A stretch of DNA of 64,000 nt from an uncultured Gammaproteobacteria bacterium (GTDB lineage Bacteria; Patescibacteriota; Patescibacteriia; Magasanikbacterales; UBA922), in contig CAZMHV010000001.1 in NCBI GenBank assembly GCA_964566225.1, positions 149,963 through 213,962 on the forward strand, read 5' to 3'. The position numbers were made by a program, and so were the translations under genes. The notes beneath the pieces were generated by a model that was given only the letters and a program-made list of their open reading frames with translations, ran no database searches and was not told the origin of the DNA. Below are positions 6,212 to 60,593 of this stretch, piece by piece (the stretch's first letter is position 1; each line of letters starts with the position of its first letter).

Positions 6212-8119
6212 ATGAACACTGAAGAAAAACAAGTCAACATCAATGACGAACGTGAAGTACGTTTACATAAAGTAGCCGAACTCCAAAAAATGGGGATTCC
6301 TTCGTTTCCGGCACAAGCAAATAAAAAAGATTCTTTGGCATTTGCGCTTGAAGCAGCCGAAGGAACTGCCATTCAAACTGCAGGCCGTATCATGACCAAA
6401 CGCGACATGGGCAAACTTATGTTTTGTCATTTGCAAGACGAAAGTACTCGCATGCAAATTGCCCTCAAAAAAGATGACCTCGGCGAAGAAAAATACAAAA
6501 CATTTTCCAAATTGATTGATGGTGGAGACATTGTAGAAATTACTGGAGAAAAATTTATTACCCACAAAGGTGAACCTTCAATTTTAGTGAGAGATTGGAA
6601 GCTCTTGACCAAAGCAGTACGACCATTGCCAGACAAATTTCATGGCGTCTCAGATGAAGAATTAAGATTGCGCAAACGTTATTTGGATTTGGTCATGAAT
6701 CCAGAACTTCGTGAGATGTTCCACAAAAAATCTAAATTTTGGGATGTGACACGCACATTCATGAAAGAACATGGATTTTTTGAAGTAGAAACTCCACTCC
6801 TCGAAACAACGACTGGTGGAGCAGAAGCCACACCATTTAAAACACATCACAATGATTTTGATCTTGATGTGTATTTGCGTATTTCTGTAGGTGAACTTTG
6901 GCAAAAACGTTTGATGGCCGGAGGCTTTGAAAAAACGTTTGAAATTGGCCGCGTATTCCGCAATGAAGGTTCAAGTCCAGACCACTTGCAAGAATTTACC
7001 AACATGGAATTTTACTGGGCCTATGCCAACTACAAAGATGGCATGAAGCTCGCTCAAGAACTCTATCAGCGTATTGCGCTTGAAGTATTTGGTAAAACCA
7101 AATTTACGAGTAAAGGCTATGAATATGATTTGGCAGGGGAGTGGCCAGAAGTAGACTATGTGGGTGAAATCAAAAAACAAACGGGTGTAGATATTTTGTC
7201 TGCGACTGAAGAAGAAATGAAAGCAAAGCTGAGTGAACTCAAAGTGGTATACGAAGGACAAAATCGTGAACGTCTCACTGACACACTCTGGAAATACTGC
7301 CGCAAAAATATTGCTGGTCCTGCATTTTTGGTGAACCATCCAAAATTGGTTTCGGCTCTTTCAAAAGCACACTCAGAGAATCCAGAACTCACGGAACGTT
7401 TTCAAATTATTATTGCAGGAAGTGAAGTGGGCAATGGTTACTCTGAGTTGAACGATCCAATTGATCAACGCGCCCGTTTTGAAGTCCAACAAAAACTTAT
7501 TGAACGTGGTGACAGTGAAGCCATGATGCCTGACTGGGAGTTTGTGGAAATGCTTGAACATGGAATGCCACCAACCTGTGGATTTGGTTTTGGTGAACGT
7601 TTATTTGCATTCCTCATGGATAAACCAATTCGTGAATGTGTGCTCTTTCCGCTCATGAAACCAGAAGAAGGACAAGAATCTACCGAAGGAAAATCCAAAA
7701 AAACCATGGTGGCACATGCGGTCTTGCTCAACACTCCAGAAGTTCCAACCTGGAGTAAACTCAATGCTGCCGCACATCTTTCGGCATCACTGGCTGCCCG
7801 TGAAGGACGTAAACTCATTCATATTGATCATGCCACAACAACCGATGGTGAGTCTATTCCCATGAATATTCAACACGCCATCATGATGAAAGAAACTGAC
7901 TCACGAACCGCTCTTTTGGAACTCAAACGCAAAGCCGATGAACTTGGACTCGTGGTAACCTGTTTTACCGAAGAAATGCGTGATTCCAGTAATGACGAAA
8001 AAGTAAAAGCCAAACAAGAAGGAAAAAGTGCAAATGATATTTCTTTTCTTGGTGTATTAGTATTTGGTGAAATGAAAGTGGTCGAAAAATTGACTGCACA
8101 ATTTAGTCTTGTAAGTTAA
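6212..8119 (+). CDS. lysS: Class II lysyl-tRNA synthetase with an extra C-terminal PTH2/DUF2000-like domain of about 140 aa
   Basis: OB-fold anticodon domain and class II motifs 1-3 (FRNEG, GFGFGERL) are present. After residue ~490 the tail aligns to the peptidyl-tRNA hydrolase PTH2 fold (MVAHAV...KLNAAAHLSA...LLELKRKADELGL...LGVLVFG...FSLVS). Confidence 0.88.
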   Translation: MNTEEKQVNINDEREVRLHKVAELQKMGIPSFPAQANKKDSLAFALEAAEGTAIQTAGRIMTKRDMGKLMFCHLQDESTRMQIALKKDDLGEEKYKTFSKLIDGGDIVEITGEKFITHKGEPSILVRDWKLLTKAVRPLPDKFHGVSDEELRLRKRYLDLVMNPELREMFHKKSKFWDVTRTFMKEHGFFEVETPLLETTTGGAEATPFKTHHNDFDLDVYLRISVGELWQKRLMAGGFEKTFEIGRVFRNEGSSPDHLQEFTNMEFYWAYANYKDGMKLAQELYQRIALEVFGKTKFTSKGYEYDLAGEWPEVDYVGEIKKQTGVDILSATEEEMKAKLSELKVVYEGQNRERLTDTLWKYCRKNIAGPAFLVNHPKLVSALSKAHSENPELTERFQIIIAGSEVGNGYSELNDPIDQRARFEVQQKLIERGDSEAMMPDWEFVEMLEHGMPPTCGFGFGERLFAFLMDKPIRECVLFPLMKPEEGQESTEGKSKKTMVAHAVLLNTPEVPTWSKLNAAAHLSASLAAREGRKLIHIDHATTTDGESIPMNIQHAIMMKETDSRTALLELKRKADELGLVVTCFTEEMRDSSNDEKVKAKQEGKSANDISFLGVLVFGEMKVVEKLTAQFSLVS

Positions 8120-8126
8120 CCAGTAT

Positions 8127-8420
8127 ATGAAAAAATTTTTGTTTTTACTCTCATCTGTACTTATCGTCGTTGGAGCAGGATGTAATACCTCTGTTCAAAA
8201 GACTCGAGTCCCCGACACAGAGAACACCGTTCAAGAACCAGAAGTTACTCTTTCTGGTGAAGCCCAAAAAGCAAAAATAGAGTGTGAAAAACTTTCAGGT
8301 ATACCAGAAGTATATATCTCCGATATAAACATTCCGGATGAGAAAAGGATTGTTTGTAAATTTGCAGATAAAACTGAATGTGATCAAATAGATTTGAATG
8401 ATGGTTTTTGTAAAAGATAA
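8127..8420 (+). CDS. Small secreted lipoprotein with one DUF333 ('putative hemolysin'-type) Cys-rich domain
   Basis: Signal peptide with a lipobox-like VGAGC, followed by the C-x-G-x12-17-C-x-F-x-D-x-S-x-C-D pattern typical of PF03891. Confidence 0.5.
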   Translation: MKKFLFLLSSVLIVVGAGCNTSVQKTRVPDTENTVQEPEVTLSGEAQKAKIECEKLSGIPEVYISDINIPDEKRIVCKFADKTECDQIDLNDGFCKR

Positions 8421-8523
8421 ATTTTGTATAGTCTGCCAGCTGGGTATAAAATTAATACAGAGGTGATATACGTACAAAAGAAGAACTTGATTCAATTGTA
8501 AAATCATTGAAATTAAAATAAGT

Positions 8524-9069
8524 ATGCCCTTCCAAATTCTTTCTAAAAAAGAAATTTTCAAAGGAAAATTTAAAAGTCTCTGGGAGACTAAGTATTTAGA
8601 TAAAAATGGGAATGAACGAATTTGGGAATGGGTATTTAAAAAAGATTATGTTTCGGTGTTGGCGATTACGGCAGAGCAAGAGCTCGTCATTATAAAACAG
8701 TATAGAGTTGCCAATGAAAAGTATGTATATCAACCAGTGGCTGGTGAAATAGATACAACAGATGAAACACCGGAAGCAACCGCACAGCGTGAACTCATGG
8801 AAGAAATTGGTTATGGAGCAGAAAAATTTATTGCACTGCGTCCACAACTCAACTCACCTGGCACTCTCACCAACCTCTGCTATCCGTTTATTGCACTCAA
8901 CGCCTACCCAGTCAATAATAATCGTGGAGATGAGTCAGAAGAAATTGAGTTGGTGAAAATTCCCATGGATAAATTGTATGAATTTTATCAAAATTGTCCA
9001 GAGGATTGTGATTTTAGTATGCGAACTATTGCCACTTACGAAATAGCCAAACATTTACATTTACTATGA
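8524..9069 (+). CDS. Nudix hydrolase (ADP-ribose pyrophosphatase-like)
   Basis: Nudix box GEIDTTDETPEATAQRELMEEIGY. Confidence 0.8.
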   Translation: MPFQILSKKEIFKGKFKSLWETKYLDKNGNERIWEWVFKKDYVSVLAITAEQELVIIKQYRVANEKYVYQPVAGEIDTTDETPEATAQRELMEEIGYGAEKFIALRPQLNSPGTLTNLCYPFIALNAYPVNNNRGDESEEIELVKIPMDKLYEFYQNCPEDCDFSMRTIATYEIAKHLHLL

Positions 9070-9758
9070 AGTCACAAACTACATTTTATTTGTTTTTTAC
9101 AGTATTATTTTTGGTTGTGGTAGCCGAAGCAGCCTGGCAATTTTCAATACAAAAAGACAACTTGTTTGCCTCTCGTCGTATTGATGCGATTGATTTTCCA
9201 ATTACAGCGTCTTCCAAACAGCCTGAAACAAGTGGAGCACTTTTTAGTGATCCTGAATCTGATGTGACTTTTCAATATCCGCAAAGTTGGAGTCTTGAAA
9301 AAAAATTAGTTGAAAAAGAATTGCCACATGTTCGAGCTTGGCAGTTTCACGAAGGAGAAGTTATCAAAGCCAATTTTTTTTCTCCTATACATGAGACTTC
9401 TTTTGACGCATGTTCTACTGGTCAATATGCGTATTTGCATTCTTTTGGGACAAACGATCCAAGTACAAATGTCCTCGCAGAGGTTTGTGCTGCCTGTGAA
9501 GAGACAACCACAAGTACAAAAAATTGTTTTTTGAGCAATAAACCTGCAACTGCATATATTTATTGGGTACGGGGTATTCAAGCCAAAAAGCAAAAAGACC
9601 TTCTCTCAAATGTCGATACCCTTTCACTTATTCGTTTTGAACTCAAAAGTGACCAAGTTTCTATGGATCAAACGGTTGAAATGATAGAAAAAATTGCTGA
9701 AAGTTTACAATTTGTACCAATAACAAGTACATCATCTTTAATTCTTTCTTCATTGTAA
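9066..9758 (+). CDS. Hypothetical secreted protein
   Basis: N-terminal signal/TM segment and a Cys-containing soluble domain. The ATGA overlap with the upstream nudix gene suggests translational coupling. Confidence 0.45.
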   Translation: MKSQTTFYLFFTVLFLVVVAEAAWQFSIQKDNLFASRRIDAIDFPITASSKQPETSGALFSDPESDVTFQYPQSWSLEKKLVEKELPHVRAWQFHEGEVIKANFFSPIHETSFDACSTGQYAYLHSFGTNDPSTNVLAEVCAACEETTTSTKNCFLSNKPATAYIYWVRGIQAKKQKDLLSNVDTLSLIRFELKSDQVSMDQTVEMIEKIAESLQFVPITSTSSLILSSL

Positions 9759-9760
9759 GT

Positions 9761-10618
9761 ATGACAAAATTTTTTACCTATCTTATTTTTATTGGTCTGC
9801 TTATTTACGTGCTCCTCAATGGAGTCACCTGTGTTACCATCAAAAAAGAATTTTATTCTTCTTCAAATTCTGGTGATACGCCTGTGGTTGTGACAAATCC
9901 AAAACTCGCAAAAGCGAGTGAGCCAGTTCAACCACAAGAAATCACAACAGAAACAATTGCCAAACTTACGAGTCAAGGTGAAAACGCAAAGAAAATCTGT
10001 AAAGATTTACAAGGACAATCTGAACTGTATATTTCTCACGACCAAAAAATTCCAGAAGAACGAATTCGTTGTACTTTTAAACTGAGTGGATCGGGTGTAG
10101 TGACATGTGAACAACGTGAGTTGGCTGAACAAACGTGTTCTGTGCAGCTCTCCAATAAATGTAGCCAGCTTGGAGGGACATATATTCAAAGTGAAAAGTC
10201 TTCTGTCTGTTCTTTTGGTAAAGCTGGTGAGTGTACTTCAGACCAGTTGCAGTATGATAACTGTCGACTCCAAAATGTATATGTTCAAAATCTTACCTAT
10301 ACGGTTCCTGAGGCCTATACTGTTTCTATTTCAAAAACTCAGGCAACAGAAAATCCATTTATGATTACTTTTTTGAGAAAAGATATTTCCAAGTGTGGAA
10401 AATTAGAAATCTTTAAAATGGATTATTTTACCAAAAGAGAAGCCGTTGCTCCAGCTGGAACTGACGAAAGCAAATTGTGTAACTATATTCCACGAAAAAC
10501 ACAGAAAATAACTTTGGGTAACGAAACATTTGATGTATGGTTTTATGCGGATATTGCTGATGCTAACGTACTCGGTGAACTTGAAAACATTTTGACAACG
10601 ATTCAGATAAAAAAGTAG
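9761..10618 (+). CDS. Membrane-anchored secreted protein with two DUF333-like Cys-rich repeats
   Basis: N-terminal TM followed by two repeats (KKICKDLQGQSELYISHD...RCTF and CSQLGGTYIQSEKSSVCSFGKAGECTSD) resembling the 8127..8420 product. Confidence 0.5.
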   Translation: MTKFFTYLIFIGLLIYVLLNGVTCVTIKKEFYSSSNSGDTPVVVTNPKLAKASEPVQPQEITTETIAKLTSQGENAKKICKDLQGQSELYISHDQKIPEERIRCTFKLSGSGVVTCEQRELAEQTCSVQLSNKCSQLGGTYIQSEKSSVCSFGKAGECTSDQLQYDNCRLQNVYVQNLTYTVPEAYTVSISKTQATENPFMITFLRKDISKCGKLEIFKMDYFTKREAVAPAGTDESKLCNYIPRKTQKITLGNETFDVWFYADIADANVLGELENILTTIQIKK

Positions 10619-11042: not shown

Positions 11043-12086
11043 ATGCCACATCGAAAACTTCTCATTGCTACACAAAACCCAGCCAAAGTGAAAGAAATCA
11101 TGCACGCGTTTGAAACGCTTCCTTTTGAGCTCGTTTCACTCAGTGATTTTTCAAATATCACTGTACCCGAAGAGCCCTATAACACGATTGAATTCAATGC
11201 TATTGCCAAGGCAAAGTACTATGCTGAGCAAACTGGACTCTTGTCACTCGCCGATGATTCTGGTATTTTTGTAGATGCTCTTGATGGCTGGCCTGGAGTC
11301 CACAGCGCACGCATTGGTGAAACCGATGACGAACGAATGAACAAAGTACTCGAGCAATTAAAAGATGTGCCCAAAGAACAACGTGGTGCCTCATTTCGGT
11401 GTGTGCTCGCGGTTGTGGATCCCAAAACAAATTCCATCCACACTTCATACGGCGAAGAGCAGGGGATACTGCTTGATGCGCCAGTGCAAGAACGTCGTGC
11501 TGGCTTTGGGTATGACCCAATCTTTTTTCTCCCAGAACTCGGCAAAACCTATGCAGAAATTCCCGTGGAAGAAAAAAATAAAACCAGTCACCGTGCCAAA
11601 GCACTGCACCAAATGGAATATGTTTTAAAAAAAGAATTTGGTGCACGTCACATTGTAGTGCCCTGTGGTTTCATTATCCAAAATGGACAACTCTATTTGC
11701 AAAAACGCAACGATCCATTCAGACCAGACTACCATGCTAAATGGGAATTTCCTGGCGGCGGAGTTGAATTCGGTGAACAAATTATTTCAAATGTGATTCG
11801 CGAAGTAAAAGAAGAAACTGGTTACGAAGTAGAAGTGGTGCAGCCACTCACTCACATTCAAGTAGAACCTCAAGAATATCCAAATTTTTCCTATCAAGTG
11901 TATCTCATTCCAATGGTCTGCAAAATAGTGGGTGGAAAATTTGAAGCACGAGATCACGAAGTGATGGAAGGAAAATGGTTTGACCTTGATGAAGTGCCAA
12001 GTTTACCACTGGTAGGGAATGATAAAGAGTTTTATGAAAAAGTGGTTGATGAGTTAAAACAAGTAGTTTTAAAATTCTCTTTATAG
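11043..12086 (+). CDS. rdgB: Fusion of RdgB/Ham1 non-canonical purine NTP pyrophosphatase (N-terminal ~200 aa) with a Nudix hydrolase domain (C-terminal ~140 aa)
   Basis: Ham1 motifs (ATQNPAKVKE, SLADDSGIFVDALDGWPGVHSAR, FGYDPIF), then the Nudix box GGGVEFGEQIISNVIREVKEETGY. Confidence 0.8.
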   Translation: MPHRKLLIATQNPAKVKEIMHAFETLPFELVSLSDFSNITVPEEPYNTIEFNAIAKAKYYAEQTGLLSLADDSGIFVDALDGWPGVHSARIGETDDERMNKVLEQLKDVPKEQRGASFRCVLAVVDPKTNSIHTSYGEEQGILLDAPVQERRAGFGYDPIFFLPELGKTYAEIPVEEKNKTSHRAKALHQMEYVLKKEFGARHIVVPCGFIIQNGQLYLQKRNDPFRPDYHAKWEFPGGGVEFGEQIISNVIREVKEETGYEVEVVQPLTHIQVEPQEYPNFSYQVYLIPMVCKIVGGKFEARDHEVMEGKWFDLDEVPSLPLVGNDKEFYEKVVDELKQVVLKFSL

Positions 12087-39157: not shown

Positions 39158-42100
39158 TTACACTACAATACTCACTAATTTTCCTTTGACATAAATCACT
39201 TTTTGAGGAGTTTTGCCATCGAGAAATTTTTGAACATTTTCTTGTGCTATTGCTTGTGCTGTAATATCTTCTTCAGTAATATTTGCATCAACTTCGAGAC
39301 TGGCACGAACCTTGCCATTGACCTGCACCACAATCGTGAGTGTATCTGAGACGATTTTTGCAGCATCATGAGTTGGAAATGGTTGAATCGTTACAGAATC
39401 GGTGTGTCCTTGATTTGCCCACATTTCTTCGGCAATATGTGGTGCAAATGGTGCCAAAATTTTGATAAACAGTTCAAAGTGTTCCGGTGCAATAGTTTCT
39501 TCTTTGCTGAGCACGTTGACGAGTTCCATCATTTTGGCAATCGCTGTGTTATATTGCATATTTGATAGGTCTTCACCAACTTTTTTGACAGTGAGGTGAA
39601 CGGTTCGTTCGGCTTCGGATGAAGGTGCTGCTGATGCAGTCACTTTTTCTTGCAATTTCCACACACGATCAAAAAATCTGCGTACGCCTTTGACACTGTC
39701 CGTATTCCAAGGCTTGGTTTGCTCGAGTGGACCCATGAACATTTCATACACGCGCATGGTGTCTGCGCCGTATTCGTTGATCACATCCGTTGGATTGATC
39801 ACATTCCCCCATCGTTTACTCATTTTGCGATTGTCTTCGCCGAGAATAAGACCTTGGTGACGAGTTTTGGTAAATGGTTCGTCAAAGGTGATATAACCAG
39901 CATCGTACAAAACTTTGGTAAAGAAACGTGAGTAGAGCAAATGTCCATTCACATGTTCTTCTCCGCCAAGATAGAAATCTACTGGCATCCATGTTTTGAG
40001 AGCCTCAGGGGAAGCAAACGCACCATCATTTTTTGGATCAAGATAACGATAATAATACCATGATGAACACATGAATGTGTCGAGGGTGTCCGGTTCACGT
40101 TTCCAACCTTTGCCATATTTTTCTTCGACTCCTGCATTGAATGATTCAGCATACATGAGTGGAGATTGACCGGTTGGTTTGAAGTCGACGTCGTCGGGGA
40201 GGATGACCGGAAGGTCTGTTTCGGGAAGTGCTTTCAAATCCATGCGAACTGGCGCGAGAACTTCTTGCAATAATTGAGGGAATTCTACAAAACCATCTTG
40301 CGCACCAAAGTGCCCAGCATTGCGCATACGTGTAACACGTGCAAAAGGCAAATGCTGATTGAAAAATTGTTGGGTAGAAGCCAGATCAATGTATGGATCA
40401 GTAGTAGAAAGAATAACCACAACTTCACCTACATTTTCTTGCACTTTTTGGAAATCAACAGGAGTACTCATGAATGTTTTGAGCATCTCCCACATGTTGT
40501 CTCCATCACAAAAATTACGAATGTTGGTGTACCAAATATCTGTTGGCAAAGTCGGTGCAATGAGCACAAGCTTACGCAATTTGTGAGTCTCTGCTAATTT
40601 TAAAGCATTCCAACAACTGAGTGATCGTCCAATAACAATACTATTTCCATCTCCGACTACTGGTTCTGCAACAGCTTGCCATTTTTCAAAGACGGGTAAA
40701 TTTGCTTCGGGAAGTTCAGGCGTAGAAACGTTGATGTTTTTTGCTCTCAACTTTTCTCCAAGCCATGGATGAAAATGATCAGCAGGACTACTTCCCCATG
40801 CATGAAGTTGCAACACTGAACTTGGTGCCTGTTGGTATTGTTCCAATAATTCTGGCGAAACATTTTCAACATGAAGCATCGGAATCGGTGCACCCCAAAA
40901 ACGCTGGCGAGACACAGACCAGTCGCGGAGTTTGTATTGCACTTTGCGGGTGCCGATTTCACGTTGTTCGAGGTGTTCGATGATTTTCTTTTTGGCTTCT
41001 TCCACAGAAAGACCGTTCAAAAAATCTGAATTTGTGAGGTGACCAGATCCGGTGTGAGGTTGGTTGGTAATTTCCATATCGGGTCCTTTCACCACTTGAC
41101 GAATTGTTAAACCAAACTTCGTTGCAAACTCAAAATCCCGCTCATCATGCGCAGGCACAGCCATAATCGCACCGGTTCCGTAGGATGCAAACACATAATC
41201 TGCCATCCACACAGGAATCTCTTCACCTGAAACAGGATTTACAGCCTTGAGGCCCTTGAGTTCAACACCTGACTTTTCTTTTTGGGTTTGACGATCCATG
41301 TCTGTTTTCAATTTTGTTTCATCAATATATTTTTTTACTTCATCCCAATTCGTGATCAAAGATTGCAATTCGGGAACCAAAGCATGTTCTGGAGCAACCA
41401 CCAAATACGTTGCACCAAAAATAGTATCTGGGCGTGTGGTAAACACTCGAATATTTTTGGCAGTTTGCAAAACAGGAAAATCAACTTCTGCACCTTCACT
41501 TCGTCCAATCCAATTGCGCTGGCGCATTTTGGTTTCTTCGGGCCAGTCGATGCGATCAAGTCCTTCAAGAAGTTTGTCAGCGTAGTCAGTGATTTTTAAA
41601 TACCATTGTTCCATGGGGCGTTGCACCACAACCGTGTCACAGCGTTCACATTTTCCTTCACCAGTCACCTGTTCGTTGGCGAGCGCAGTTTTACAACTAT
41701 CACACCAATTTACATTTTGATTTTTGCGATATGCCAAACCTTGTTTGTACATGAGGAGAAAAAACCACTGTGTCCATTTGTAATAATCACTATTGTGACT
41801 CCCCACTTCTCTGTCCCAGTCAACTGAAATTCCGAGGCCTTTGATTTGACTCCGAAAGTTATCAATGGCAGCGTTAGTACTCACGCGTGGATGTACATTG
41901 GTTTTAATCGCATAATTTTCAGCAGGCAAACCAAAAGAATCCCAGCCAATCACCTGGAGCACCTTTTTGCCCATCATACGTTGATAGCGCGCATAAATGT
42001 CACACGCTGTGTACACTTCGGCATGACCCACGTGAAGACCGCTTCCTGAAGGGTATGGAAGCTGTGGGAGGATGTACATTTTATTTTCGGGAGTAACATT

Positions 42101-42181
42101 GGTGGGTGTCTTATACAGGTTTTGCTTTTCCCACTCTGCTTGCCACTTTGGTTCAATTTCTTTGGGGTTGTATTGATTCAT
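39158..42181 (-). CDS. leuS: Leucyl-tRNA synthetase carrying a ~215-aa inserted RBBP9/YdeN-type serine hydrolase domain
   Basis: HIGH (HVGHAE), CP1 editing motifs (TTRPDT, AHDERD) and KMSKS (KMSKR) are all present. Residues ~436-655 align to the PF06821 family (HFHPWLGEKL, GRSLS, TTDPYI, NAGHFGAQDGFVEFP). Confidence 0.9.
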   Translation of the reverse strand: MNQYNPKEIEPKWQAEWEKQNLYKTPTNVTPENKMYILPQLPYPSGSGLHVGHAEVYTACDIYARYQRMMGKKVLQVIGWDSFGLPAENYAIKTNVHPRVSTNAAIDNFRSQIKGLGISVDWDREVGSHNSDYYKWTQWFFLLMYKQGLAYRKNQNVNWCDSCKTALANEQVTGEGKCERCDTVVVQRPMEQWYLKITDYADKLLEGLDRIDWPEETKMRQRNWIGRSEGAEVDFPVLQTAKNIRVFTTRPDTIFGATYLVVAPEHALVPELQSLITNWDEVKKYIDETKLKTDMDRQTQKEKSGVELKGLKAVNPVSGEEIPVWMADYVFASYGTGAIMAVPAHDERDFEFATKFGLTIRQVVKGPDMEITNQPHTGSGHLTNSDFLNGLSVEEAKKKIIEHLEQREIGTRKVQYKLRDWSVSRQRFWGAPIPMLHVENVSPELLEQYQQAPSSVLQLHAWGSSPADHFHPWLGEKLRAKNINVSTPELPEANLPVFEKWQAVAEPVVGDGNSIVIGRSLSCWNALKLAETHKLRKLVLIAPTLPTDIWYTNIRNFCDGDNMWEMLKTFMSTPVDFQKVQENVGEVVVILSTTDPYIDLASTQQFFNQHLPFARVTRMRNAGHFGAQDGFVEFPQLLQEVLAPVRMDLKALPETDLPVILPDDVDFKPTGQSPLMYAESFNAGVEEKYGKGWKREPDTLDTFMCSSWYYYRYLDPKNDGAFASPEALKTWMPVDFYLGGEEHVNGHLLYSRFFTKVLYDAGYITFDEPFTKTRHQGLILGEDNRKMSKRWGNVINPTDVINEYGADTMRVYEMFMGPLEQTKPWNTDSVKGVRRFFDRVWKLQEKVTASAAPSSEAERTVHLTVKKVGEDLSNMQYNTAIAKMMELVNVLSKEETIAPEHFELFIKILAPFAPHIAEEMWANQGHTDSVTIQPFPTHDAAKIVSDTLTIVVQVNGKVRASLEVDANITEEDITAQAIAQENVQKFLDGKTPQKVIYVKGKLVSIVV

Positions 42182-49680: not shown

Positions 49681-50367
49681 ATGCCTTTCATTCTTATCAA
49701 CAAAGAAGCTGGGTGGACCAGTCATGACGTGGTTGGATATTTGCGCAAAGTCACCCGCCTCAAAAAAATTGGCCATGCCGGAACCCTGGACCCATTTGCT
49801 ACGGGTTTGCTTATTGTTGGCATTGGACGGGACGCTACCAAGCGCCTCGATGAATTTAAAAATAAAAAAAAGACGTATGAGGCCACGGTGCATTTGGGAG
49901 CAGTGAGTGATACCTATGATAGCACCGGAATTATAACCCCTACTGGGGCAAATATAAAAAGTATTCAAAAAGAACAAATTGAGCTGTTACTAGCACAATT
50001 TTTTGGTACTCAAGAGCAAATTCCACCTATGTACTCTGCCAAAAAAGTAGGTGGTGAAAAATTGTATGACCTGGCAAGAAAAGGTATAGAAATAGAGCGC
50101 AAACCCCATACTATTACCATCGAGAGTATTCGCCTTGGAGAAATCAAGGACAATGAATTTACTCTACAAGTGACCTGCTCGCCTGGGACCTATATTCGTA
50201 CCCTAGTGCATGATATTGGAAGTAAACTTGGCGTAGGCGCCTACTGTGAGACGCTCAAACGAACAGCCATTGGTGAATTTTTGGTTGAGAGTGCCCATGA
50301 AGTAAAAACCCTCACCCGTGAAAATTGGGAGACCGTGTGCTTTGACCTGCCCACCTTGTCCCCATGA
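49681..50367 (+). CDS. truB: tRNA pseudouridine(55) synthase
   Basis: Catalytic Asp motif GHAGTLDPFATGLL. Short form lacking a PUA domain. Confidence 0.9.
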   Translation: MPFILINKEAGWTSHDVVGYLRKVTRLKKIGHAGTLDPFATGLLIVGIGRDATKRLDEFKNKKKTYEATVHLGAVSDTYDSTGIITPTGANIKSIQKEQIELLLAQFFGTQEQIPPMYSAKKVGGEKLYDLARKGIEIERKPHTITIESIRLGEIKDNEFTLQVTCSPGTYIRTLVHDIGSKLGVGAYCETLKRTAIGEFLVESAHEVKTLTRENWETVCFDLPTLSP

Positions 50368-50474
50368 CAAGACTTGACAGAGGTGGTATTATAGGATATA
50401 TTTGGCTATCTTTCCGCAATTCTGCGGCGAGATCTGGCTCTGTGCCAGAATCCTTAAAACCAACTCTGTGGTAG

Positions 50475-51068
50475 GTGAATATGGACCACCCTGTCGACAT
50501 CATGTTCGACAATCCTCGGGTGGACAAGTTCACCCGTGATTTATTTGTCGATCTTGCGATCGACCTCGGACTCGGCTTGTCTGAGCCAGACATTGAATTG
50601 ACCACCCTGGTGGTGAAGCAATTCATGAATGGTTTGTACACGCTCCTGTGTGAGTGGGAGGCTGGAACCGGGAGAACTGACAACCCGTACGCTTTGCTGC
50701 TCCTGCTGAACGAAATGGCAACGTTTCCCATGCGAGAGGACTGGAAAGCGCGCACACGGCAGCAGTTCGAATGCTTCCAGTTTCAACTGAGGCACCGATT
50801 CGAGCAAGAACCATGGGCCAAACGTCAGTCACCGCAGGATCCGACCATCCGAGAAGTCCAACCTGCTCGGTGGTGGAAGATCATGACCGGCACCGGCATG
50901 ATCTTGTTTCACAGGTTCCTCGTGAGAGACCTGAGGAAACGCGACCTGCACATTCGACGTGGGATACGTACGGTCGCACGAGCGAACCGAGCCAAGCGCA
51001 TGCCCATGGCTACGGCCACAGCCGAAACTGATGCTACGTCCGACGACGAGCACAAGCGTTCGGCCTGA
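50475..51068 (+). CDS. Hypothetical protein encoded in a GC-rich (~58-60%) island
   Basis: ORF with balanced amino-acid composition and GC-rich codon usage unlike flanking genes; the competing antisense ORFs are Arg/Pro-rich. Confidence 0.45.
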   Translation: MNMDHPVDIMFDNPRVDKFTRDLFVDLAIDLGLGLSEPDIELTTLVVKQFMNGLYTLLCEWEAGTGRTDNPYALLLLLNEMATFPMREDWKARTRQQFECFQFQLRHRFEQEPWAKRQSPQDPTIREVQPARWWKIMTGTGMILFHRFLVRDLRKRDLHIRRGIRTVARANRAKRMPMATATAETDATSDDEHKRSA

Positions 51069-51451
51069 GCTACCCTACAGAGGAAATCACGTGGTGGTTG
51101 TAGAATCGTATTCTCTCCACCACGTTCCCCTGCCCTTTGGTATCAAACATGTTTGGTAACAGTGGGCAGGGTTTTGTATTTTGCAAAACAAAAAAAGAAT
51201 GTTATACTTTTTTTGTTTTGATTCTGAAACTCCGTAAATAAAACCTTTGTTCTTTACTTATAATCAACTTGAATAGAGTGAATGTTTGATGGGTAAAAAA
51301 ATAATTTTTCAATTTTCAAGAATTATTTTTCAACCCGTCAACGTTTCTCTGTTCCCCGAAAATCACCGGGGTCGTTGACTAGCCACTGTTTCAAAAAGGC
51401 AATTTCTGCCTTGCGAGACTTTGCCGATAATACGGAGAAGGGGTAAGGGTC

Positions 51452-51907
51452 TTGAAGAAACTTTTTGACCTGATCGAGGCGTTTCAAAGGCTCCTCCTGG
51501 CTCGGATCGCCGAGTACAACCTGGGCAGTCCCCCTGCCCTCTCGAGCGACCAACTGGCTACCCTGCTGGAACTCTTCAGCAAGCTCGACCGCTACGACGC
51601 GGCGTCCCTCGCCATGAGGCACACTGGCGCCAAGGCGGGCAACCGCCTCTATGAGGCGAAGCGCGAGCAGTTCTGTCTCGCCCTCCCCGAGGAGCTGCGC
51701 CCGTTCTTCGTCGAGGCGCAGACGATGGGGCGTGTCATCGCCGAGGCAGGGTGCTACACCCTGAATGACGCTCGTTGGTGGGATCCCCCACAGGTTCCGC
51801 TGCAACGGCGAGTCTTGGCGGTGCGACCGCTGCCAAGTGTCGACACTGCGTCGGAGACAGTCCGGCGAGCAATGCTCTCCCCTCGAACCGCGCGCATCGG
51901 GCCGTAG
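51452..51907 (+). CDS. Hypothetical protein in a GC-rich island (TTG start per the ORF track, preceded by GGAGAAGGGG)
   Basis: Balanced composition on the + strand against Arg-rich antisense frames, with an SD-like purine tract upstream and a strong terminator downstream. Confidence 0.4.
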   Translation: MKKLFDLIEAFQRLLLARIAEYNLGSPPALSSDQLATLLELFSKLDRYDAASLAMRHTGAKAGNRLYEAKREQFCLALPEELRPFFVEAQTMGRVIAEAGCYTLNDARWWDPPQVPLQRRVLAVRPLPSVDTASETVRRAMLSPRTARIGP

Positions 51908-51936
51908 ACCTCCCAGGTCTCCGGCTTGTATCTTTT

Positions 51937-52010
51937 GGCGCACGAACGTTTCGTGCGCCAGTCCTGATTTTTTTTATCACACTCTGTGGTAGAAAAAATC
52001 AGGACTTTTT
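51937..52010 (+). terminator. Tandem hairpin terminator closing the GC-rich island, possibly also serving minus-strand uvrC
   Basis: GGCGCACGAACGTTTCGTGCGCC followed by AGTCCTGATTTTTTTT...AAAAAATCAGGACTTTTTTATTTT. Confidence 0.7.
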
Positions 52011-57921: not shown

Positions 57922-58015
57922 TATATTGCGGCGTTGCGGGAATGATGTGTTGTTTGTTTCCCCACGAACGTGAACAGGATGTTCATGTTCGTGCGCCTGG
58001 GCGCGTGGTGTTGGC

Positions 58016-58867
58016 TTAGGCGGCCGAGGCCACCTGCTCCTGATAGCCGAGCACCAGCGCGCTGAAGCGATCGTAGGCCAGGCGGCCCGCTTCGGTGACC
58101 TCGTCGTGCGAGAGCTCGGCGCCGGTGATGCCGGCCGCCATGTTGGTCATGAGCGACACACCGGCCACACGCAGACCACACCAGTTGGCCGCGATGGCCT
58201 CGGGCACGGTCGACATGCCCACGGCATCAGCCCCGAGGACGCGGAGCATCCGAATCTCGGCAGGGGTCTCGTAGTTGGGCCCCTTGAACGCGGCGTAAAC
58301 ACCCTGCTGGAGTTCCCCCACTCCACACTTGCTGGCCGCTTGCATGAGCATCAGCTCACCGTGACGGTACAGATTGCTCTGCCCGGGGAAACGCGGTCCG
58401 AGCTTGTTGTTGTTCGGCCCGACCAGGGGGTTCTCGCCCGTGAGGTTGAGGTGATCCACGATGGCCATGAGGTCACCACGCTTCCAATCCACCCGGATGC
58501 ACCCGGCGGCGTTGGTGAGCAGGATGTCGTTGACACCCATCTCCTTGGCCAAAAGCACCGACTGCACCACCTGCTGGGCCGTGTAGCCCTCGTTGAGGTG
58601 CAGACGACCCGCGAACGCGATGGTGGGCACGCCACTGAGCATACCCATGAACACCTTGCGGTCGTGGCCCTCGACCTCGGTGTTGATGAACGGCCACAGG
58701 GTGCGGAAGTCCACCACCAGCGCCCCCTGGTCGAACTTCTCGACCAGCTTGCCGAGGCCGCTCCCGAGCACGAGCGCGACCTTGGGGCCGGTCCAGCCAT
58801 TGGGCTTTTTCCAGGCCGCGAGACGGGGCAAGAGCACAGACATCACAGTCGAATCGAGTCGAAGCAT
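58016..58867 (-). CDS. Purine nucleoside phosphorylase / 5'-methylthioadenosine phosphorylase family (PNP family 2)
   Basis: VALVLGSGLG phosphate loop, MSTVPEA and NMAAG motifs. About 65% GC. The start is set at MLRLDS, preceded by AAGGAGAAG 7 nt upstream. Confidence 0.8.
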   Translation of the reverse strand: MLRLDSTVMSVLLPRLAAWKKPNGWTGPKVALVLGSGLGKLVEKFDQGALVVDFRTLWPFINTEVEGHDRKVFMGMLSGVPTIAFAGRLHLNEGYTAQQVVQSVLLAKEMGVNDILLTNAAGCIRVDWKRGDLMAIVDHLNLTGENPLVGPNNNKLGPRFPGQSNLYRHGELMLMQAASKCGVGELQQGVYAAFKGPNYETPAEIRMLRVLGADAVGMSTVPEAIAANWCGLRVAGVSLMTNMAAGITGAELSHDEVTEAGRLAYDRFSALVLGYQEQVASAA

Positions 58868-58925
58868 CGCAGCTTCTCCTTTGCGGTAAAGCCCAGTACA
58901 CATTGACTGGGACGGTTGTGGCCGG

Positions 58926-58954
58926 ATACTACCCTTTTTTAAAAAAATTTGCAA
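58926..58954 (-). promoter_or_regulatory. Sigma70-like promoter TTGCAA-N17-TAGTAT driving the GC-rich PNP gene
   Basis: Near-consensus -35/-10 hexamers with 17-nt spacing, upstream of the Shine-Dalgarno sequence and start. Confidence 0.5.
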
Positions 58955-58966
58955 GGGGCCAAGCAC

Positions 58967-58994
58967 AAAAAATCACCTCTTGTAAGGTGATTTT
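58967..58994 (-). terminator. Rho-independent terminator after the DUF1697 gene, end of the accessory operon
   Basis: Hairpin AAAATCACCTTACAAGAGGTGATTTT with flanking T-runs. Confidence 0.7.
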
Positions 58995-59008
58995 ATTTTT
59001 ATTCTTTT

Positions 59009-59536
59009 TTACTTTTCTTCACAAAGTTTCCGCGCTGTGTTCACATTGCGCACAGTCATGAGTTTGTAATACTTGTGGCTAATAACTTTGTTCAAATGAC
59101 TCTTGTTTACATTCTCTCGGCGTATATTCCAAATCAAGGCACCCTTTACATAGCGAATATCCACACATTCTTTTTTGATGGGAAGTTCATCAATAGTTTT
59201 TTTGGAGTCAATTTCTGGGAATAAATAGGCAACGTCGGTTCTTTGGATAGCATCATTGGCCCACTCAGGCGGAATGGCCTTGGCAATGGTCTGCATTTGT
59301 GTGCGAGTTTTAACAAGCGTCGCAACTTCAAAACCAAATGTTTTTTCAATTGCTTTTTCCATTTCTTTTTGGAGCAGCTCAGGTTTTTTGTTTGATTCAA
59401 ACAGTACGTTGCCAGAGTTGATGTAGGTGGAAACGTTGGAGTAGCCAAGTGACTCACACATGGCTTTGAGTTTTTTCATGTTGACTTGGCGAGTGGTGCC
59501 GACGTTGATGCCGCGCAGGAGGGCGATGTGGTGCAT
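59009..59536 (-). CDS. DUF1697 family protein
   Basis: N-terminal signature IALLRGINVG...STYINSGNVLF; start set at MHHIALLRG. Confidence 0.7.
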   Translation of the reverse strand: MHHIALLRGINVGTTRQVNMKKLKAMCESLGYSNVSTYINSGNVLFESNKKPELLQKEMEKAIEKTFGFEVATLVKTRTQMQTIAKAIPPEWANDAIQRTDVAYLFPEIDSKKTIDELPIKKECVDIRYVKGALIWNIRRENVNKSHLNKVISHKYYKLMTVRNVNTARKLCEEK

Positions 59537-59550
59537 AAAAATATACCTAA

Positions 59551-59835
59551 TTAACAAACACTAAACGCAGAACTTTCATCGATAGAAATATCATCTGTTT
59601 TACACTTTGGACATCGGTCAGCTGCATTTTGACAGACCTCTCCCCCACACGCTTCGCACACTCCAATTTGTTCTGGCAAAAGAACAACTTCGTAGGCTCG
59701 TCGTTCAGGATGGTCGATTCGTTTTGATTTTCCGCAGTCTTTGCATTTGTACAGGGTAAAATAAAAACCACGACCACCTGAGACCGTACACTCTTCACCA
59801 CACACATTACATTTTGCAAAAAAGTAGGTTGCCAT
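59551..59835 (-). CDS. Small zinc-ribbon protein with four CxxC pairs
   Basis: CNVCGEEC...CKDCGK...CEACGGEVC...CPKC. Confidence 0.5.
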   Translation of the reverse strand: MATYFFAKCNVCGEECTVSGGRGFYFTLYKCKDCGKSKRIDHPERRAYEVVLLPEQIGVCEACGGEVCQNAADRCPKCKTDDISIDESSAFSVC

Positions 59836-59840
59836 AAAAT

Positions 59841-60593
59841 TTAGAGAGCTTTACCCACCGCCCCCACATACGCACAAAAATCACAGTTCGCACTCGCCTT
59901 GGGCACACTTTTTTTATCAAGACATTTTTTGGCAGCGACAATTGCGTCCTCCACCCATGCGTCGTCGCCATCGTACGCAATGAGTGTAATATCAAATTCA
60001 AGTTTGGCGTCAAAGGCTTTTCGGTCGGTTTGACCATTGCAGTACACAAAGTATCCGGTGCTCGAAACTTTGTATCCATTGCAGCGAAGCAGCCACTGAT
60101 ACATTTCCATTTGGCGTTTGTATCCGTCTTGCCAGTCTTTGTTTAGCTCGGTAATTTCTTCACTCTTCGAAGTTGACTTGTAGTCCACCACAATATACTC
60201 GCCTTTTGAATTTTGCCACAAATCATCAATGGCACCAAACACCAAAAAATTGGTGGCCTCATGGAGATATTGAACACCGGTAAAATTGTGTCGCCACGCA
60301 TCCAAATTTTCATGCGCTACAGGCCGAGCATCCACACCATATTTTTTGATTAAAGGATGCGCATTGCCACTGGCGCGATGAATATCAAACTCAAGCTTGA
60401 GCAAATGATCAACCGCCGAATTGAGCGCAAACGGAAATCCAGGTGGCCGCCCTACGCCGAGGCGTCGATCGAGGTAGAAGCAACGTGGACAGTCGAGAAA
60501 GAGTTCAATTTTGGAGCGGGAGAGTTTGAAGGGGGTTTCTTGTTTAGGCGTGTAGAGGTTTTTGGTGCGGTGAGGGGTGTAGTACTCGGACAT
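59841..60593 (-). CDS. Cas4-like PD-(D/E)XK nuclease with probable Fe-S cluster cysteines (stand-alone, no CRISPR array)
   Basis: RecB-fold motifs (GAIDDL, VVDYKSTSK, QMEMYQWLL) plus Cys at the N terminus (CPRCFY) and C terminus (C...CDFCAY). Confidence 0.65.
   Translation of the reverse strand: MSEYYTPHRTKNLYTPKQETPFKLSRSKIELFLDCPRCFYLDRRLGVGRPPGFPFALNSAVDHLLKLEFDIHRASGNAHPLIKKYGVDARPVAHENLDAWRHNFTGVQYLHEATNFLVFGAIDDLWQNSKGEYIVVDYKSTSKSEEITELNKDWQDGYKRQMEMYQWLLRCNGYKVSSTGYFVYCNGQTDRKAFDAKLEFDITLIAYDGDDAWVEDAIVAAKKCLDKKSVPKASANCDFCAYVGAVGKAL

What the first reader, a model, noticed from the sequence alone, without database searches (positions are those of the whole stretch)
7694..8119. Lysyl-tRNA synthetase fused to a C-terminal PTH2/DUF2000-like domain
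After a complete class II LysRS core (ending ...CVLFPLMKPEEG) the ORF continues for ~140 aa. Its pattern resembles the peptidyl-tRNA hydrolase 2 fold: KTMVAHAVLL..SKLNAAAHLSAS vs PTH2 KMVlVVRtDL..GKIAAQcaHAAv, then LLELKRKADELGL vs LlelkkkAkelGL, then LGVLVFGE..KLTAQFSLVS vs LGIGPaP...vTGhLKLl. The canonical PTH2 D-A-G-x-T-Q catalytic segment is replaced by a Lys/Glu-rich insert, so it is closer to the DUF2000 branch or is a degenerate binding module. A tRNA-3'-end-handling fold fused to an aaRS parallels the leuS insertion (39158..42181). Together they suggest this lineage grafts hydrolase-fold modules onto synthetases.
Basis: partly seen in the sequence, partly recalled or inferred. Interest (0 to 1): 0.6.

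Follow-up and report, generated by a model that had tools for sequence, protein, structure and literature searches.

The report
Lysyl-tRNA synthetase with PTH2-fold tail
The lysine-charging enzyme of this small-genome (Patescibacteria-type) bacterium ends in a conserved extra domain, built like a peptidyl-tRNA hydrolase and of unknown function, which may be a proofreading module that this enzyme was thought to lack.

Summary
ORF 6212..8119(+) encodes a complete class II LysRS (aa 1-485), a flexible linker of about 15 aa, and a 137-aa C-terminal domain. That domain is a clear DUF2000/PF09391 member (68.8 bits, cutoff 25). Its model (pLDDT 92) matches Atu0240/2GAX first and then only PTH2 hydrolases.

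It is not an artefact. About 70 of the 120 closest LysRS carry the same tail. Two relatives carry it at a syntenic locus. Its dN/dS (0.11-0.17) is close to that of the core.

DUF2000 is fused only to LysRS among the synthetases I found. Two DUF2000 subtypes are involved, across many Patescibacterial phyla. Some fusions also carry AlaX-type, B3/4 or HDIG domains. Free-standing copies sometimes lie next to lysine genes (LysO, DapF, lysS).

The PTH2 motifs GKGK and DAGxT are absent. The helix-1 His and the C-terminal Thr are kept, together with a DUF2000-specific invariant polar set (W, N, H, D, N, E-M, D). Canonical pth sits a few kb from three fused genes, so the tail does not replace Pth.

Best reading (inferred, not shown): a hydrolase acting on esters at the tRNALys 3' end, that is cis proofreading. 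I found no paper that mentions DUF2000.

The parts
6212..8119 (+). lysS gene: class II LysRS fused to a C-terminal DUF2000 domain (635 aa plus stop codon)
   Evidence: Single ORF. Pfam and NCBIfam domain calls. 54 full-length fused homologues align end to end.
6377..6607 (+). OB-fold anticodon-binding domain (aa 56-132)
   Evidence: PF01336, E 8.5e-14.
6653..7657 (+). Class II catalytic core (aa 148-482)
   Evidence: PF00152, E 8e-71. The lysS equivalog models pass their cut-offs.
7658..7705 (+). Flexible Lys/Glu/Gly/Ser-rich linker (aa 483-498, KPEEGQESTEGKSKKT). It contains an A7 run.
   Evidence: pLDDT below 50 at aa 490-495 in the full-length model. The tail-less relative P0010 ends inside this linker, at ...PEDGQKTEE. 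DNA read.
7706..8116 (+). DUF2000 domain with a PTH2-like fold (aa 499-635): a four-strand, four-helix core plus a beta-hairpin insert (aa 540-550) and a helical insert (aa 595-603)
   Evidence: PF09391, 68.8 bits. 2gax_A by sequence, E 1.6e-4. AF2 pLDDT 92.2. Foldseek hits 2GAX and then only PTH2 structures. hhalign to PTH2 90.7%.
7751..7777 (+). Helix-1 signature W514-x3-N518-x3-H522, on one helix face. H522 aligns with the invariant His of the PTH2 AAQxxH motif.
   Evidence: Invariant or near-invariant in 130, 44 and 54 sequences. Also conserved in the free-standing subtype. Register.
7844..7867 (+). D545 and the P-x-N552-x-Q motif in and after the hairpin insert
   Evidence: D545 and N552 are invariant in the fused subfamily. 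PRNSQ is invariant in the free-standing subtype.
7964..7996 (+). F585-T586-x-E588-M589 ... N594-D595. This occupies the position of the PTH2 DAGxT catalytic segment.
   Evidence: F585, M589 and D595 are invariant; T586 is at least 90% conserved and E588 is E or D in most sequences. Alignment to PTH2.
8093..8095 (+). T628 in the C-terminal LTxxFxL motif, which aligns with the invariant Thr of the PTH2 'TGxLKL' motif

Best explanation
Shown: the gene encodes a working-looking class II lysyl-tRNA synthetase. A flexible linker of about 15 residues joins its C-terminus to a folded 137-aa DUF2000 domain. DUF2000 is a remote relative of peptidyl-tRNA hydrolase 2 with the same fold. The fusion is old, is inherited vertically at a syntenic locus, is under purifying selection as strong as that on the catalytic core, and is repeatedly lost. 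Among aaRS, only LysRS was found fused to DUF2000.

Inferred mechanism: the tail is a small ester hydrolase, not a passive appendage. LysRS holds tRNALys by its anticodon and acceptor stem. The tethered domain samples the acylated CCA end and hydrolyses esters that should not be there. The most likely substrates are tRNALys charged with a near-cognate amino acid or lysine analogue (post-transfer proofreading in cis). Free-standing copies would do the same in trans. The pocket would be formed by the invariant W514/N518/H522 face of helix 1, by D545 and N552, and by E588-M589/D595. The last group lies where PTH2 has its DAGxT catalytic segment. The substrate and the catalysis itself are untested.
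For: Identity and fold:
- PF09391 at 68.8 bits and 2gax_A by sequence.
- AF2 pLDDT 92.2 and pTM 0.85.
- Foldseek: 2GAX at TM 0.79/0.82, then 12 PTH2 chains at E 3e-5 to 8e-4, then nothing below E 0.02.
- hhalign DUF2000 against PTH2: 90.7%, E 1.2e-6, with the His and Thr of PTH2 retained.

Real and selected:
- About 70 of 120 nearest LysRS are fused.
- Synteny in L090 and L091.
- dN/dS is 0.11-0.17 for the tail and 0.09-0.15 for the core.
- 13 invariant tail positions across 54 fused proteins whose tails are only 35-80% identical.

Specific link to LysRS and tRNA esters:
- All 29 representative clusters that carry an aaRS part score as LysRS.
- In 80 GTDB species loci of a second DUF2000 subtype, 33 are fused to LysRS and 4 more (L019, L036, L047, L054) have a LysRS-like ORF within 4 kb. 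In L036 the match is weak (E 2.8e-11). About 2-3% would be expected by chance.
- Some fusions also hold recognised aa-tRNA editing modules: AlaXM-like at 125 bits (P0132) and B3/4 at 72.6 bits (P0181).

Not a basic RNA-affinity tag: tail pI is 6.5 and the free-standing median is 5.6.

Flexible tether: linker pLDDT below 50.

Lysine context of free copies: LysO directly upstream in L012 and L019, and DapF overlapping in L009.
Against: - No activity has ever been reported for any DUF2000 protein. No paper in the library mentions DUF2000, PF09391 or Atu0240.
- The PTH2 residues I recall as catalytic (GKGK Lys, DAGxT Asp/Thr) are not conserved. Catalysis would therefore need a different residue set.
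- I could not obtain model coordinates, so clustering of the invariant residues in 3D is inferred from topology only.
- No LysRS core position co-varies with presence of the tail.
- The nearest relatives do without the tail, so it is dispensable.
- Most free-standing copies have no translation-related neighbours.
- The solved member Atu0240 lacks H522, D545 and N552, so the family may not share one function.
Confidence: 0.45

Rival explanations
1. Dedicated N-blocked or peptidyl-tRNALys hydrolase. The tail keeps the ancestral PTH2 job but serves one tRNA. It strips dropped-off peptidyl-tRNALys and hands the tRNA straight to the synthetase for recharging.
For: PTH2 fold and remote homology. An exclusive partnership with LysRS fits the known fact that Pth deficiency in E. 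coli kills through starvation for Lys-tRNALys (Heurgue-Hamard et al. 1996, EMBO J 15:2826, listed as reference 5 in PMC11994314). A requirement for an N-blocked substrate would explain how a hydrolase can sit next to Lys-tRNALys safely.
Against: Canonical Pth1 genes lie 2-4 kb from fused lysS-DUF2000 genes in L057, L061 and L074, so Pth activity is already present. The PTH2 motifs GKGK and DAGxT are lost. The tail is dispensable in the closest relatives.
Confidence: 0.15
2. Non-catalytic module. The tail would be a ligand sensor (lysine or a lysine-related metabolite) or a docking surface that regulates LysRS or recruits a partner. It would reuse the PTH2 scaffold without hydrolysis.
For: The catalytic PTH2 motifs are absent. 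Free-standing copies lie beside the lysine exporter LysO (L012, L019), DapF (L009) and, in 10 of 47 loci, a ~215-aa protein with a weak ACT-like C-terminus. The tail is dispensable.
Against: Nine or more invariant or near-invariant polar residues (N, H, D, N, T, E, D, K, T) in 137 aa, shared by two subtypes that are only about 30% identical, look more like an active site than a docking surface. The domain co-occurs with true editing hydrolases in one chain. The pI is acidic to neutral, so it is not a general tRNA-affinity tag.
Confidence: 0.15
3. Clean-up enzyme for a small-molecule side product of LysRS. Candidates are non-cognate aminoacyl-adenylates, or the lactone, thiolactone and lactam products of pre-transfer editing. 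The neighbouring HDIG variants might likewise remove Ap4A.
For: In sister LysRS the same C-terminal position holds an HDIG phosphohydrolase. Its best PDB sequence hits, though not significant, are YqeK-type Ap4A hydrolases. Free copies are acidic and often have no translation genes nearby.
Against: The YqeK hits have E 0.1 and 0.66. DUF2000 and HDIG also occur together in one protein (P0137, P0145, P0149), so they are not equivalents. The only characterised relatives of the fold act on tRNA esters.
Confidence: 0.1
4. Lys-tRNALys-consuming transferase. It would follow the logic of mycobacterial LysX (LysRS fused to MprF), with the tail passing lysine from tRNA to a lipid or cell-wall acceptor.
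For: There is precedent for LysRS fused to a user of its product (NCBIfam LysX model). One DUF2000 protein is fused to a membrane fatty-acid-desaturase domain (P0208). The window gene sits among cell-wall genes: mreBCD, PBP2, Mur ligase.
Against: No transferase is known with this fold. There is no membrane segment in the tail. The lipid link rests on a single fusion. The cell-wall neighbours are ordinary conserved synteny.
Confidence: 0.04
5. Artefact: a frameshift, a mis-assembly or read-through that joins lysS to a separate downstream gene.
For: There is an A7 run in the linker DNA. Some database entries of about 150 aa start at the internal Met of ...PLMKP.
Against: Dozens of independent assemblies from different sources show the same fusion with the same linker register. 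Composition is equal in core and tail. Syntenic orthologues are also fused. The ~150-aa 'MKP...' entries start at the internal Met of the LysRS ...PLMKP motif. I read them as truncated gene calls, though I did not check their contigs.
Confidence: 0.01

Closest known systems
DUF2000 / PF09391 (structure 2GAX, Atu0240 of Agrobacterium tumefaciens)
   Same: The Pfam score is well above the gathering score over the whole profile. Fold TM is 0.79/0.82. W, N518, E-M and D595 are shared.
   Different: Atu0240 is a free-standing 135-aa protein and lacks H522, D545, N552 and T586. The window domain belongs to a LysRS-fused subfamily with its own invariant set. No member has a known function.
Peptidyl-tRNA hydrolase 2 (PTH2, PF01981; 1XTY, 1Q7S, 3ERJ, 2ZV3, 1WN2, 1RLK)
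   Same: It has the same four-strand, four-helix alpha/beta fold. Profile-profile homology is 90.7%. The helix-1 His (AAQxxH) and the C-terminal Thr (TGxLKL) are conserved.
   Different: There is no PF01981 hit. The GKGK and DAGxT motifs are absent. Two insertions are present (a hairpin at aa 540-550 and a helix at aa 595-603). The domain is fused to an aaRS and occurs in bacteria that also have Pth1.
Appended or free-standing aa-tRNA editing domains (AlaX/tRNA_SAD, PheRS B3/4, YbaK/ProXp, DTD-like N2 domain of archaeal ThrRS)
   Same: It is a small hydrolase-type domain tethered to a synthetase, it has free-standing paralogues, and in some relatives it sits in the same chain as AlaX-type or B3/4 domains.
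   Different: The fold differs from all of these. LysRS is not known to have any post-transfer editing domain (my own knowledge). Activity is untested.
LysX (MprF-LysRS fusion of mycobacteria)
   Same: It is a LysRS fused to a second domain that deals with Lys-tRNALys.
   Different: In LysX the extra part is an N-terminal membrane transferase. Here it is a C-terminal soluble PTH2-fold domain. Only the LysRS part matches the LysX model, and the score (452.6) is far below its cut-off of 742.

Membership tests
Class II lysyl-tRNA synthetase (LysS) | Equivalog or subfamily HMM above the curated cut-off | tested here: met
   PRK00484 521.7 bits (cut-off 468) and TIGR00499 463 bits (cut-off 427.6), covering aa 10-485.
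Class II lysyl-tRNA synthetase (LysS) | N-terminal OB anticodon-binding domain plus a class IIb catalytic core | tested here: met
   PF01336 at aa 56-132 and PF00152 at aa 148-482. The core residues that are invariant across 54 homologues are present in the window protein.
DUF2000 (PF09391) | Pfam HMM above the gathering score over most of the profile | tested here: met
   68.8 bits against 25; profile positions 9-132 of 133.
DUF2000 (PF09391) | Same fold as the solved member 2GAX | tested here: met
   Foldseek E 6.2e-10, TM 0.79/0.82, rmsd 2.5 A over 139 columns.
PTH2 (PF01981) | Pfam PTH2 HMM match | tested here: not met
   No PF01981 hit, even at E<=10.
PTH2 (PF01981) | PTH2 fold and remote homology | tested here: met
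   12 PTH2 chains at E 3e-5 to 8e-4, TM 0.49-0.72. hhalign with the diverse DUF2000 alignment gives 90.7%. The narrow fused subfamily alone gives only 12%.
PTH2 (PF01981) | Conserved GKGK (Lys) and DAGxT (Asp, Thr) segments. These are invariant in the five solved PTH2 sequences. That they are the active-site residues is my own recollection of the Sulfolobus Pth2 mutagenesis work. | tested here: not met
   K17-G18-K19, D83, G85 and T87 are invariant in A5. The tail has W-S-K at the first position, and F-T-E-E-M plus an insert at the second.
PTH2 (PF01981) | Hydrolysis of N-blocked aminoacyl-tRNA or peptidyl-tRNA | not testable with these tools
   This needs an enzyme assay.
Known aaRS editing-domain families (CP1, YbaK/INS, AlaX/tRNA_SAD, B3/4, DTD-like) | Sequence membership in one of these families | tested here: not met
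   The only Pfam hit of the tail above threshold is DUF2000, and there is no NCBIfam hit. AlaX-type and B3/4 domains occur as separate, additional domains in relatives P0132 and P0181.
Known aaRS editing-domain families (functional class) | Deacylation of mischarged tRNA | not testable with these tools
   This needs a deacylation assay with mischarged tRNALys.

The most novel reading that the evidence does not exclude
DUF2000 is a previously unrecognised structural class of aminoacyl-tRNA proofreading domain, built on the PTH2 fold. It would give class II LysRS, an enzyme thought to rely only on pre-transfer editing, a post-transfer editing site. It would act in cis in much of the Patescibacteria and in trans in Chlamydiae, Babeliales and others. 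It may form part of a defence against lysine analogues, together with the LysO exporter.
Probability: 0.35. Interest if true: 0.8.

Novelty: new variant of a known kind. Interest (0 to 1): 0.6.

Why it matters
As far as I know, LysRS is one of the synthetases with no known post-transfer editing domain, and its class II form is known to accept lysine analogues. Here a domain related to peptidyl-tRNA hydrolase is conserved and selected, is found on no other synthetase in the data searched, and occurs across a large part of the Patescibacteria, sometimes in tandem with AlaX-type or B3/4 editing domains. That gives a concrete, testable function for an orphan family (DUF2000, structure solved in 2006, no literature found). 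If the tail deacylates tRNALys, it adds a new fold to the small set of proofreading modules. It would also say something about how reduced-genome, host-dependent bacteria keep translation accurate while scavenging amino acids. If instead the tail senses lysine or removes a LysRS by-product, it still reveals an unknown accessory function of an essential enzyme.

Tried and rejected
- Literature searches found nothing relevant: DUF2000; PF09391/Atu0240/2GAX; Pth2+LysRS+fused; aaRS+Patescibacteria+fusion.
- The first related-loci run, with the diverse alignment A2, failed for lack of a conserved stretch. It worked with the narrower A3.
- I looked for LysRS core positions that track presence of the tail, as a sign of a relaxed active site. 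There were none.
- I looked for pth in the window using an E. coli Pth sequence recalled from memory. There was no hit. This is uninformative for a 64-kb window, but pth was found next to fused lysS in three other genomes.
- No tRNA genes lie next to free-standing DUF2000 genes, except an unrelated tRNA-Thr.
- The Powers et al. 2005 PTH2 paper (PMC2253226) is not held. The statement on PTH2 catalytic residues therefore rests on my memory plus the invariant columns.
- Model coordinates are not returned by the tools. I could not measure whether the invariant residues cluster, or how far the tail can reach towards the LysRS active site.
- I rejected the idea that this lineage recently gained the tail. 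P0010 (89% core identity, syntenic) ends inside a recognisable remnant of the linker. Fused orthologues at 66-74% core identity share the locus. Loss in P0010 is therefore more likely. However, the mosaic identity pattern (tail 79-81% to P0011/P0012 against 66-68% for the core) leaves room for recombination.
Full report
**1. What is in the sequence**

Window 6212..8119(+) is one ORF of 635 codons. Pfam finds an OB anticodon-binding domain (aa 56-132), the class II D/K/N catalytic core (aa 148-482) and DUF2000/PF09391 (aa 509-634). The 141-aa tail alone (7694..8116) scores E 5.8e-19 and 68.8 bits against a gathering score of 25, and it covers profile positions 9-132 of 133. NCBIfam lysS models pass their cut-offs over aa 10-485 and give nothing for the tail. 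No PTH2 (PF01981) hit appears even at E<=10. GC and GC3 are the same in core and tail, and there are no ambiguous bases. The folded domain begins at aa 499 (nt 7706), after the linker KPEEGQESTEGKSKKT.

**2. Fold**

I built an alignment of 44 tails (A1). The AlphaFold2 model from it has pLDDT 92.2 and pTM 0.85. Its order of elements is strand-helix-(hairpin)-strand-helix-strand-helix-(helix)-strand-helix.

- Foldseek against the PDB puts 2GAX (Atu0240, the solved DUF2000 protein) first, with E 6e-10 and TM 0.79/0.82.
- The next 12 hits are all PTH2 enzymes: MJ0051, AF2095, Sulfolobus Pth2, human Bit1/PTRH2, Ta0108 and PH1539, at E 3e-5 to 8e-4.
- After these, only two further PTH2 chains appear (E 0.025 and 0.12), and everything else is above E 0.7.
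- By sequence, 2gax_A is the only significant PDB hit, at E 1.6e-4.
- I retrieved five PTH2 sequences from the PDB and aligned them (A5). hhalign of a diverse DUF2000 alignment (A2) against A5 gives 90.7% probability and E 1.2e-6 over 114 columns. The narrow fused subfamily alone gives only 12%, over the C-terminal half.

H522 falls on the invariant His of the PTH2 AAQxxH motif. T628 falls on the Thr of TGxLKL. The PTH2 GKGK and DAGxT segments, invariant in A5, have no counterpart. At the DAGxT position the tail has F-T-x-E-M followed by an insertion of about 12-20 residues. PTH2 proteins are described as four strands plus four helices and 116-120 aa long (PMC11202043). The tail is that core plus two insertions.

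In the full-length model (pLDDT 84.4, pTM 0.70) the tail folds on its own, and aa 490-495 have pLDDT below 50. This indicates a flexible tether.

**3. Not an artefact, and under selection**

- Of the 120 best LysRS homologues, about 70 have the same ~630-aa architecture. They come from NCBI, JGI, ENA and Logan assemblies named Magasanikbacteria, Pacebacteria/Paceibacterota, Minisyncoccia and Patescibacteria.
- Two fused relatives sit in the same gene order as the window: mreB-mreC-mreD-PBP2-greA-lysS-CTP_transf_like-Ham1/NUDIX-serS-...-Mur ligase-DegT.
- Nei-Gojobori dN/dS is 0.11-0.17 for the tail and 0.09-0.15 for the core. dS is near saturation, so these values are rough.
- Across 54 full-length fused proteins the tail has 13 invariant positions: W514, H522, L523, L535, D545, N552, I557, F585, M589, D595, G614, G619 and others. 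N518, T586 and T628 are at least 90% conserved.
- The 'Lys/Glu-rich insert' contains E588, M589, D595 and K605, so it is not degenerate.

**4. Distribution and history**

A neighbour-joining tree of 127 LysRS cores shows the tail in all deep branches and in two large clades. The Magasanikbacteria-like clade that holds the window is mostly tail-less. A few of its members are fused (the window, P0006-9, P0019, P0096), and several carry a C-terminal HDIG domain of about 210 aa instead.

The nearest cores, at 89, 86, 80, 79 and 76% identity, all lack the tail. The closest, P0010, is syntenic and stops inside a recognisable remnant of the linker...LMKPEDGQKTEE. The simplest history is an old fusion with repeated loss. 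One caveat applies. The window's tail is 79-81% identical to those of P0011 and P0012, whose cores are only 66-68% identical, and the identity profile along the protein is mosaic. Recombination may therefore have played a part.

**5. Partnership with LysRS**

The exhaustive search with the tail found 85 representative clusters.

- Every one with a synthetase part matches the LysRS core: 29 of 84, with full-length proteins at 278-470 bits. No other aaRS was found.
- Variant architectures include LysRS-DUF2000-AlaXM-like (P0132, 125 bits to the AlaXM model), LysRS-B3/4-DUF2000 (P0181, B3_4 at 72.6 bits), LysRS-DUF2000-HDIG (P0137, P0145, P0149) and one fatty-acid-desaturase-DUF2000 (P0208).
- A second subtype, about 30% identical and marked by the motifs QDFS...W..N...H...PRNSQ...EMIE..DD (A3), is mostly free-standing at about 140 aa. 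It occurs in many Patescibacterial phyla, in Chlamydiae, in Babeliales and in some MAGs labelled Gammaproteobacteria.
- In 80 GTDB species loci of this subtype, 33 have it in the same ORF as LysRS. Four more (L019, L036, L047, L054) have a LysRS-like ORF within 4 kb; in L036 the match is weak (E 2.8e-11). A given gene would be expected in a 20-kb window about 2-3% of the time.

So two DUF2000 subtypes are fused to LysRS.

**6. Other context clues**

- Free-standing copies lie directly after the lysine exporter LysO in L012 and L007/L019, where an M20 peptidase and lysS follow within 3 kb.
- One free-standing copy overlaps the end of dapF in L009.
- Free-standing copies lie next to an Exo_endo_phos gene in Paceibacterota and Chlamydiae.
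- In 10 of 47 loci they lie next to a ~215-aa protein. Two of the three members I scanned gave a weak, sub-threshold ACT_9 match at the C-terminus.
- Most other neighbours are unrelated.
- Canonical Pth1 genes lie 2-4 kb from fused lysS-DUF2000 in L057, L061 and L074. The tail is therefore not a substitute for a missing Pth.
- The tail is near neutral (pI 6.5) and free copies are acidic (median pI 5.6). This argues against a basic, non-specific tRNA-affinity appendage.
- No LysRS core position tracks presence of the tail.

**7. Mechanism**

Shown: domain identity, fold, remote homology to PTH2, conservation, selection, tethering, and the restriction of aaRS fusions to LysRS.

Inferred: the domain is an ester hydrolase that works on the acylated 3' end of tRNALys held by the synthetase. 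Four reasons support this.
- The only characterised relatives of the fold hydrolyse the tRNA-A76 ester.
- The substrate of a fused domain is most simply a product of LysRS.
- Sister architectures add recognised aa-tRNA deacylase modules at the same place.
- The dense invariant polar set suggests an active site. It lies on one face of helix 1 and at the topological position of the PTH2 catalytic loop.

Pth1 co-exists with the fusion, and a hydrolase next to Lys-tRNALys must spare the cognate product. I therefore favour proofreading of mischarged tRNALys (0.45) over peptidyl-tRNALys recycling (0.15). The recycling idea remains attractive because Pth deficiency in E. coli acts through Lys-tRNALys starvation (Heurgue-Hamard 1996, cited in PMC11994314). 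The residue types of the invariant set (Asn, His, Asn, Glu-Met, Asp) resemble those reported for the unrelated Pth1 active site (Asn9, His19, Asn57, Glu83, Met84 in T. thermophilus Pth). I record this as a curiosity, not as evidence. The remaining rivals are a lysine or ligand sensor (0.15), a by-product hydrolase (0.10), a LysX-like transferase (0.04) and an artefact (0.01).

**8. Comparison with what is known, and novelty**

The protein is a member of LysS and of DUF2000. It is not a member of Pfam PTH2: the HMM and the conserved motifs fail, although fold and profile homology hold. It belongs to none of the known editing-domain families.

The architecture is visible in public databases, where it is annotated simply as 'lysine--tRNA ligase'. 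I found no paper that mentions DUF2000, PF09391 or Atu0240, and none on a PTH2-like domain on LysRS. I rate it a new variant of a known kind: a synthetase with an appended hydrolase-type domain, here of a fold not reported in that role. Interest 0.6.

**9.

LeuRS (39158..42181, minus strand, 1006 aa) has a Pfam Ser_hydrolase (alpha/beta hydrolase) domain inserted at aa 457-637. It scores E 8e-12 and 45.8 bits against a cut-off of 22, and lies just after the CP1 editing domain at aa 221-404. The leuS_bact model is split at about aa 446. The parallel is real at the domain level. I did not study it further.

Noticed in passing
window 39158..42181 (-): LeuRS of 1006 aa carries an inserted alpha/beta-hydrolase 'Ser_hydrolase' (PF06821) domain at aa 457-637 (E 8e-12, 45.8 bits, cut-off 22), directly after the CP1 editing domain. 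This is a second synthetase in the window with an extra hydrolase-fold module.
   Followed up: partly
relatives P0025, P0028, P0029, P0050, P0055, P0069 (LysRS of the same clade): These proteins carry a C-terminal HDIG domain of about 210 aa in place of DUF2000. Its two best PDB sequence hits are YqeK-type Ap4A hydrolases, but they are not significant (E 0.1 and 0.66). LysRS is a main source of Ap4A, so this deserves a proper test.
   Followed up: partly
relatives P0132, P0181, P0137, P0145, P0149: Three-part LysRS architectures occur: LysRS-DUF2000-AlaXM-like (125 bits), LysRS-B3/4-DUF2000, and LysRS-DUF2000-HDIG.
   Followed up: partly
L007/L019 3133..4426; L012 about 9006..10423; L009 3094..4426: Free-standing DUF2000 genes lie directly after the lysine exporter LysO in two unrelated genomes, and one overlaps the end of dapF.
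   Followed up: partly
L005 4229..4876 (-), L007 2388..3029 (-), L075 8740..9696 (-), and 7 other loci: A ~215-aa protein lies next to the free-standing DUF2000 gene in 10 of 47 loci from several phyla. It is on the opposite strand in the three loci I checked. It has no Pfam family above threshold. Two of the three members I scanned gave a weak ACT_9 match at the C-terminus. By eye the N-terminus looks like a possible helix-turn-helix.
   Followed up: partly
window 8127..10618 (+): Four genes lie between lysS and the CTP_transf_like gene: a 97-aa lipoprotein-like product, a 181-aa NUDIX, a 230-aa product and a 285-aa product. They are absent from the syntenic loci L090 and L091. The 97-aa and 285-aa products share a Cys-rich motif (ECEKLSGIPEVYISDINIPDEKRIVCKF / ICKDLQGQSELYISHDQKIPEERIRCTF).
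   Followed up: no
window 50001..52000 and 58001..60000: GC is 0.51-0.52 here against a window mean of 0.40. The ORFs there have no Pfam hits (50481..51068), or carry DUF1697 just beside the high-GC block (59009..59536). This may be foreign DNA.
   Followed up: no
window 6212..7693 compared with P0006-P0012: The identity pattern along LysRS is mosaic. The OB domain (aa 51-150) is 80-84% identical to P0011/P0012 but 55-70% to P0006-8. The catalytic domain (aa 176-450) is mostly 72-100% identical to P0006 and P0008 (64-94% to P0007) but 36-84% to P0011/P0012. This suggests recombination within lysS.
   Followed up: partly
L057 4000..4482, L061 5629..6135, L074 978..1469: Canonical pth (Pth1) genes lie 2-4 kb upstream of the fused lysS-DUF2000 gene in three Patescibacterial genomes. 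An M20 peptidase gene lies directly upstream of lysS in 7 loci.
   Followed up: partly
window 11043..12086 (+): This is a Ham1 (ITPase)-NUDIX fusion protein of 347 aa. It is conserved at the same position in relatives.
   Followed up: no
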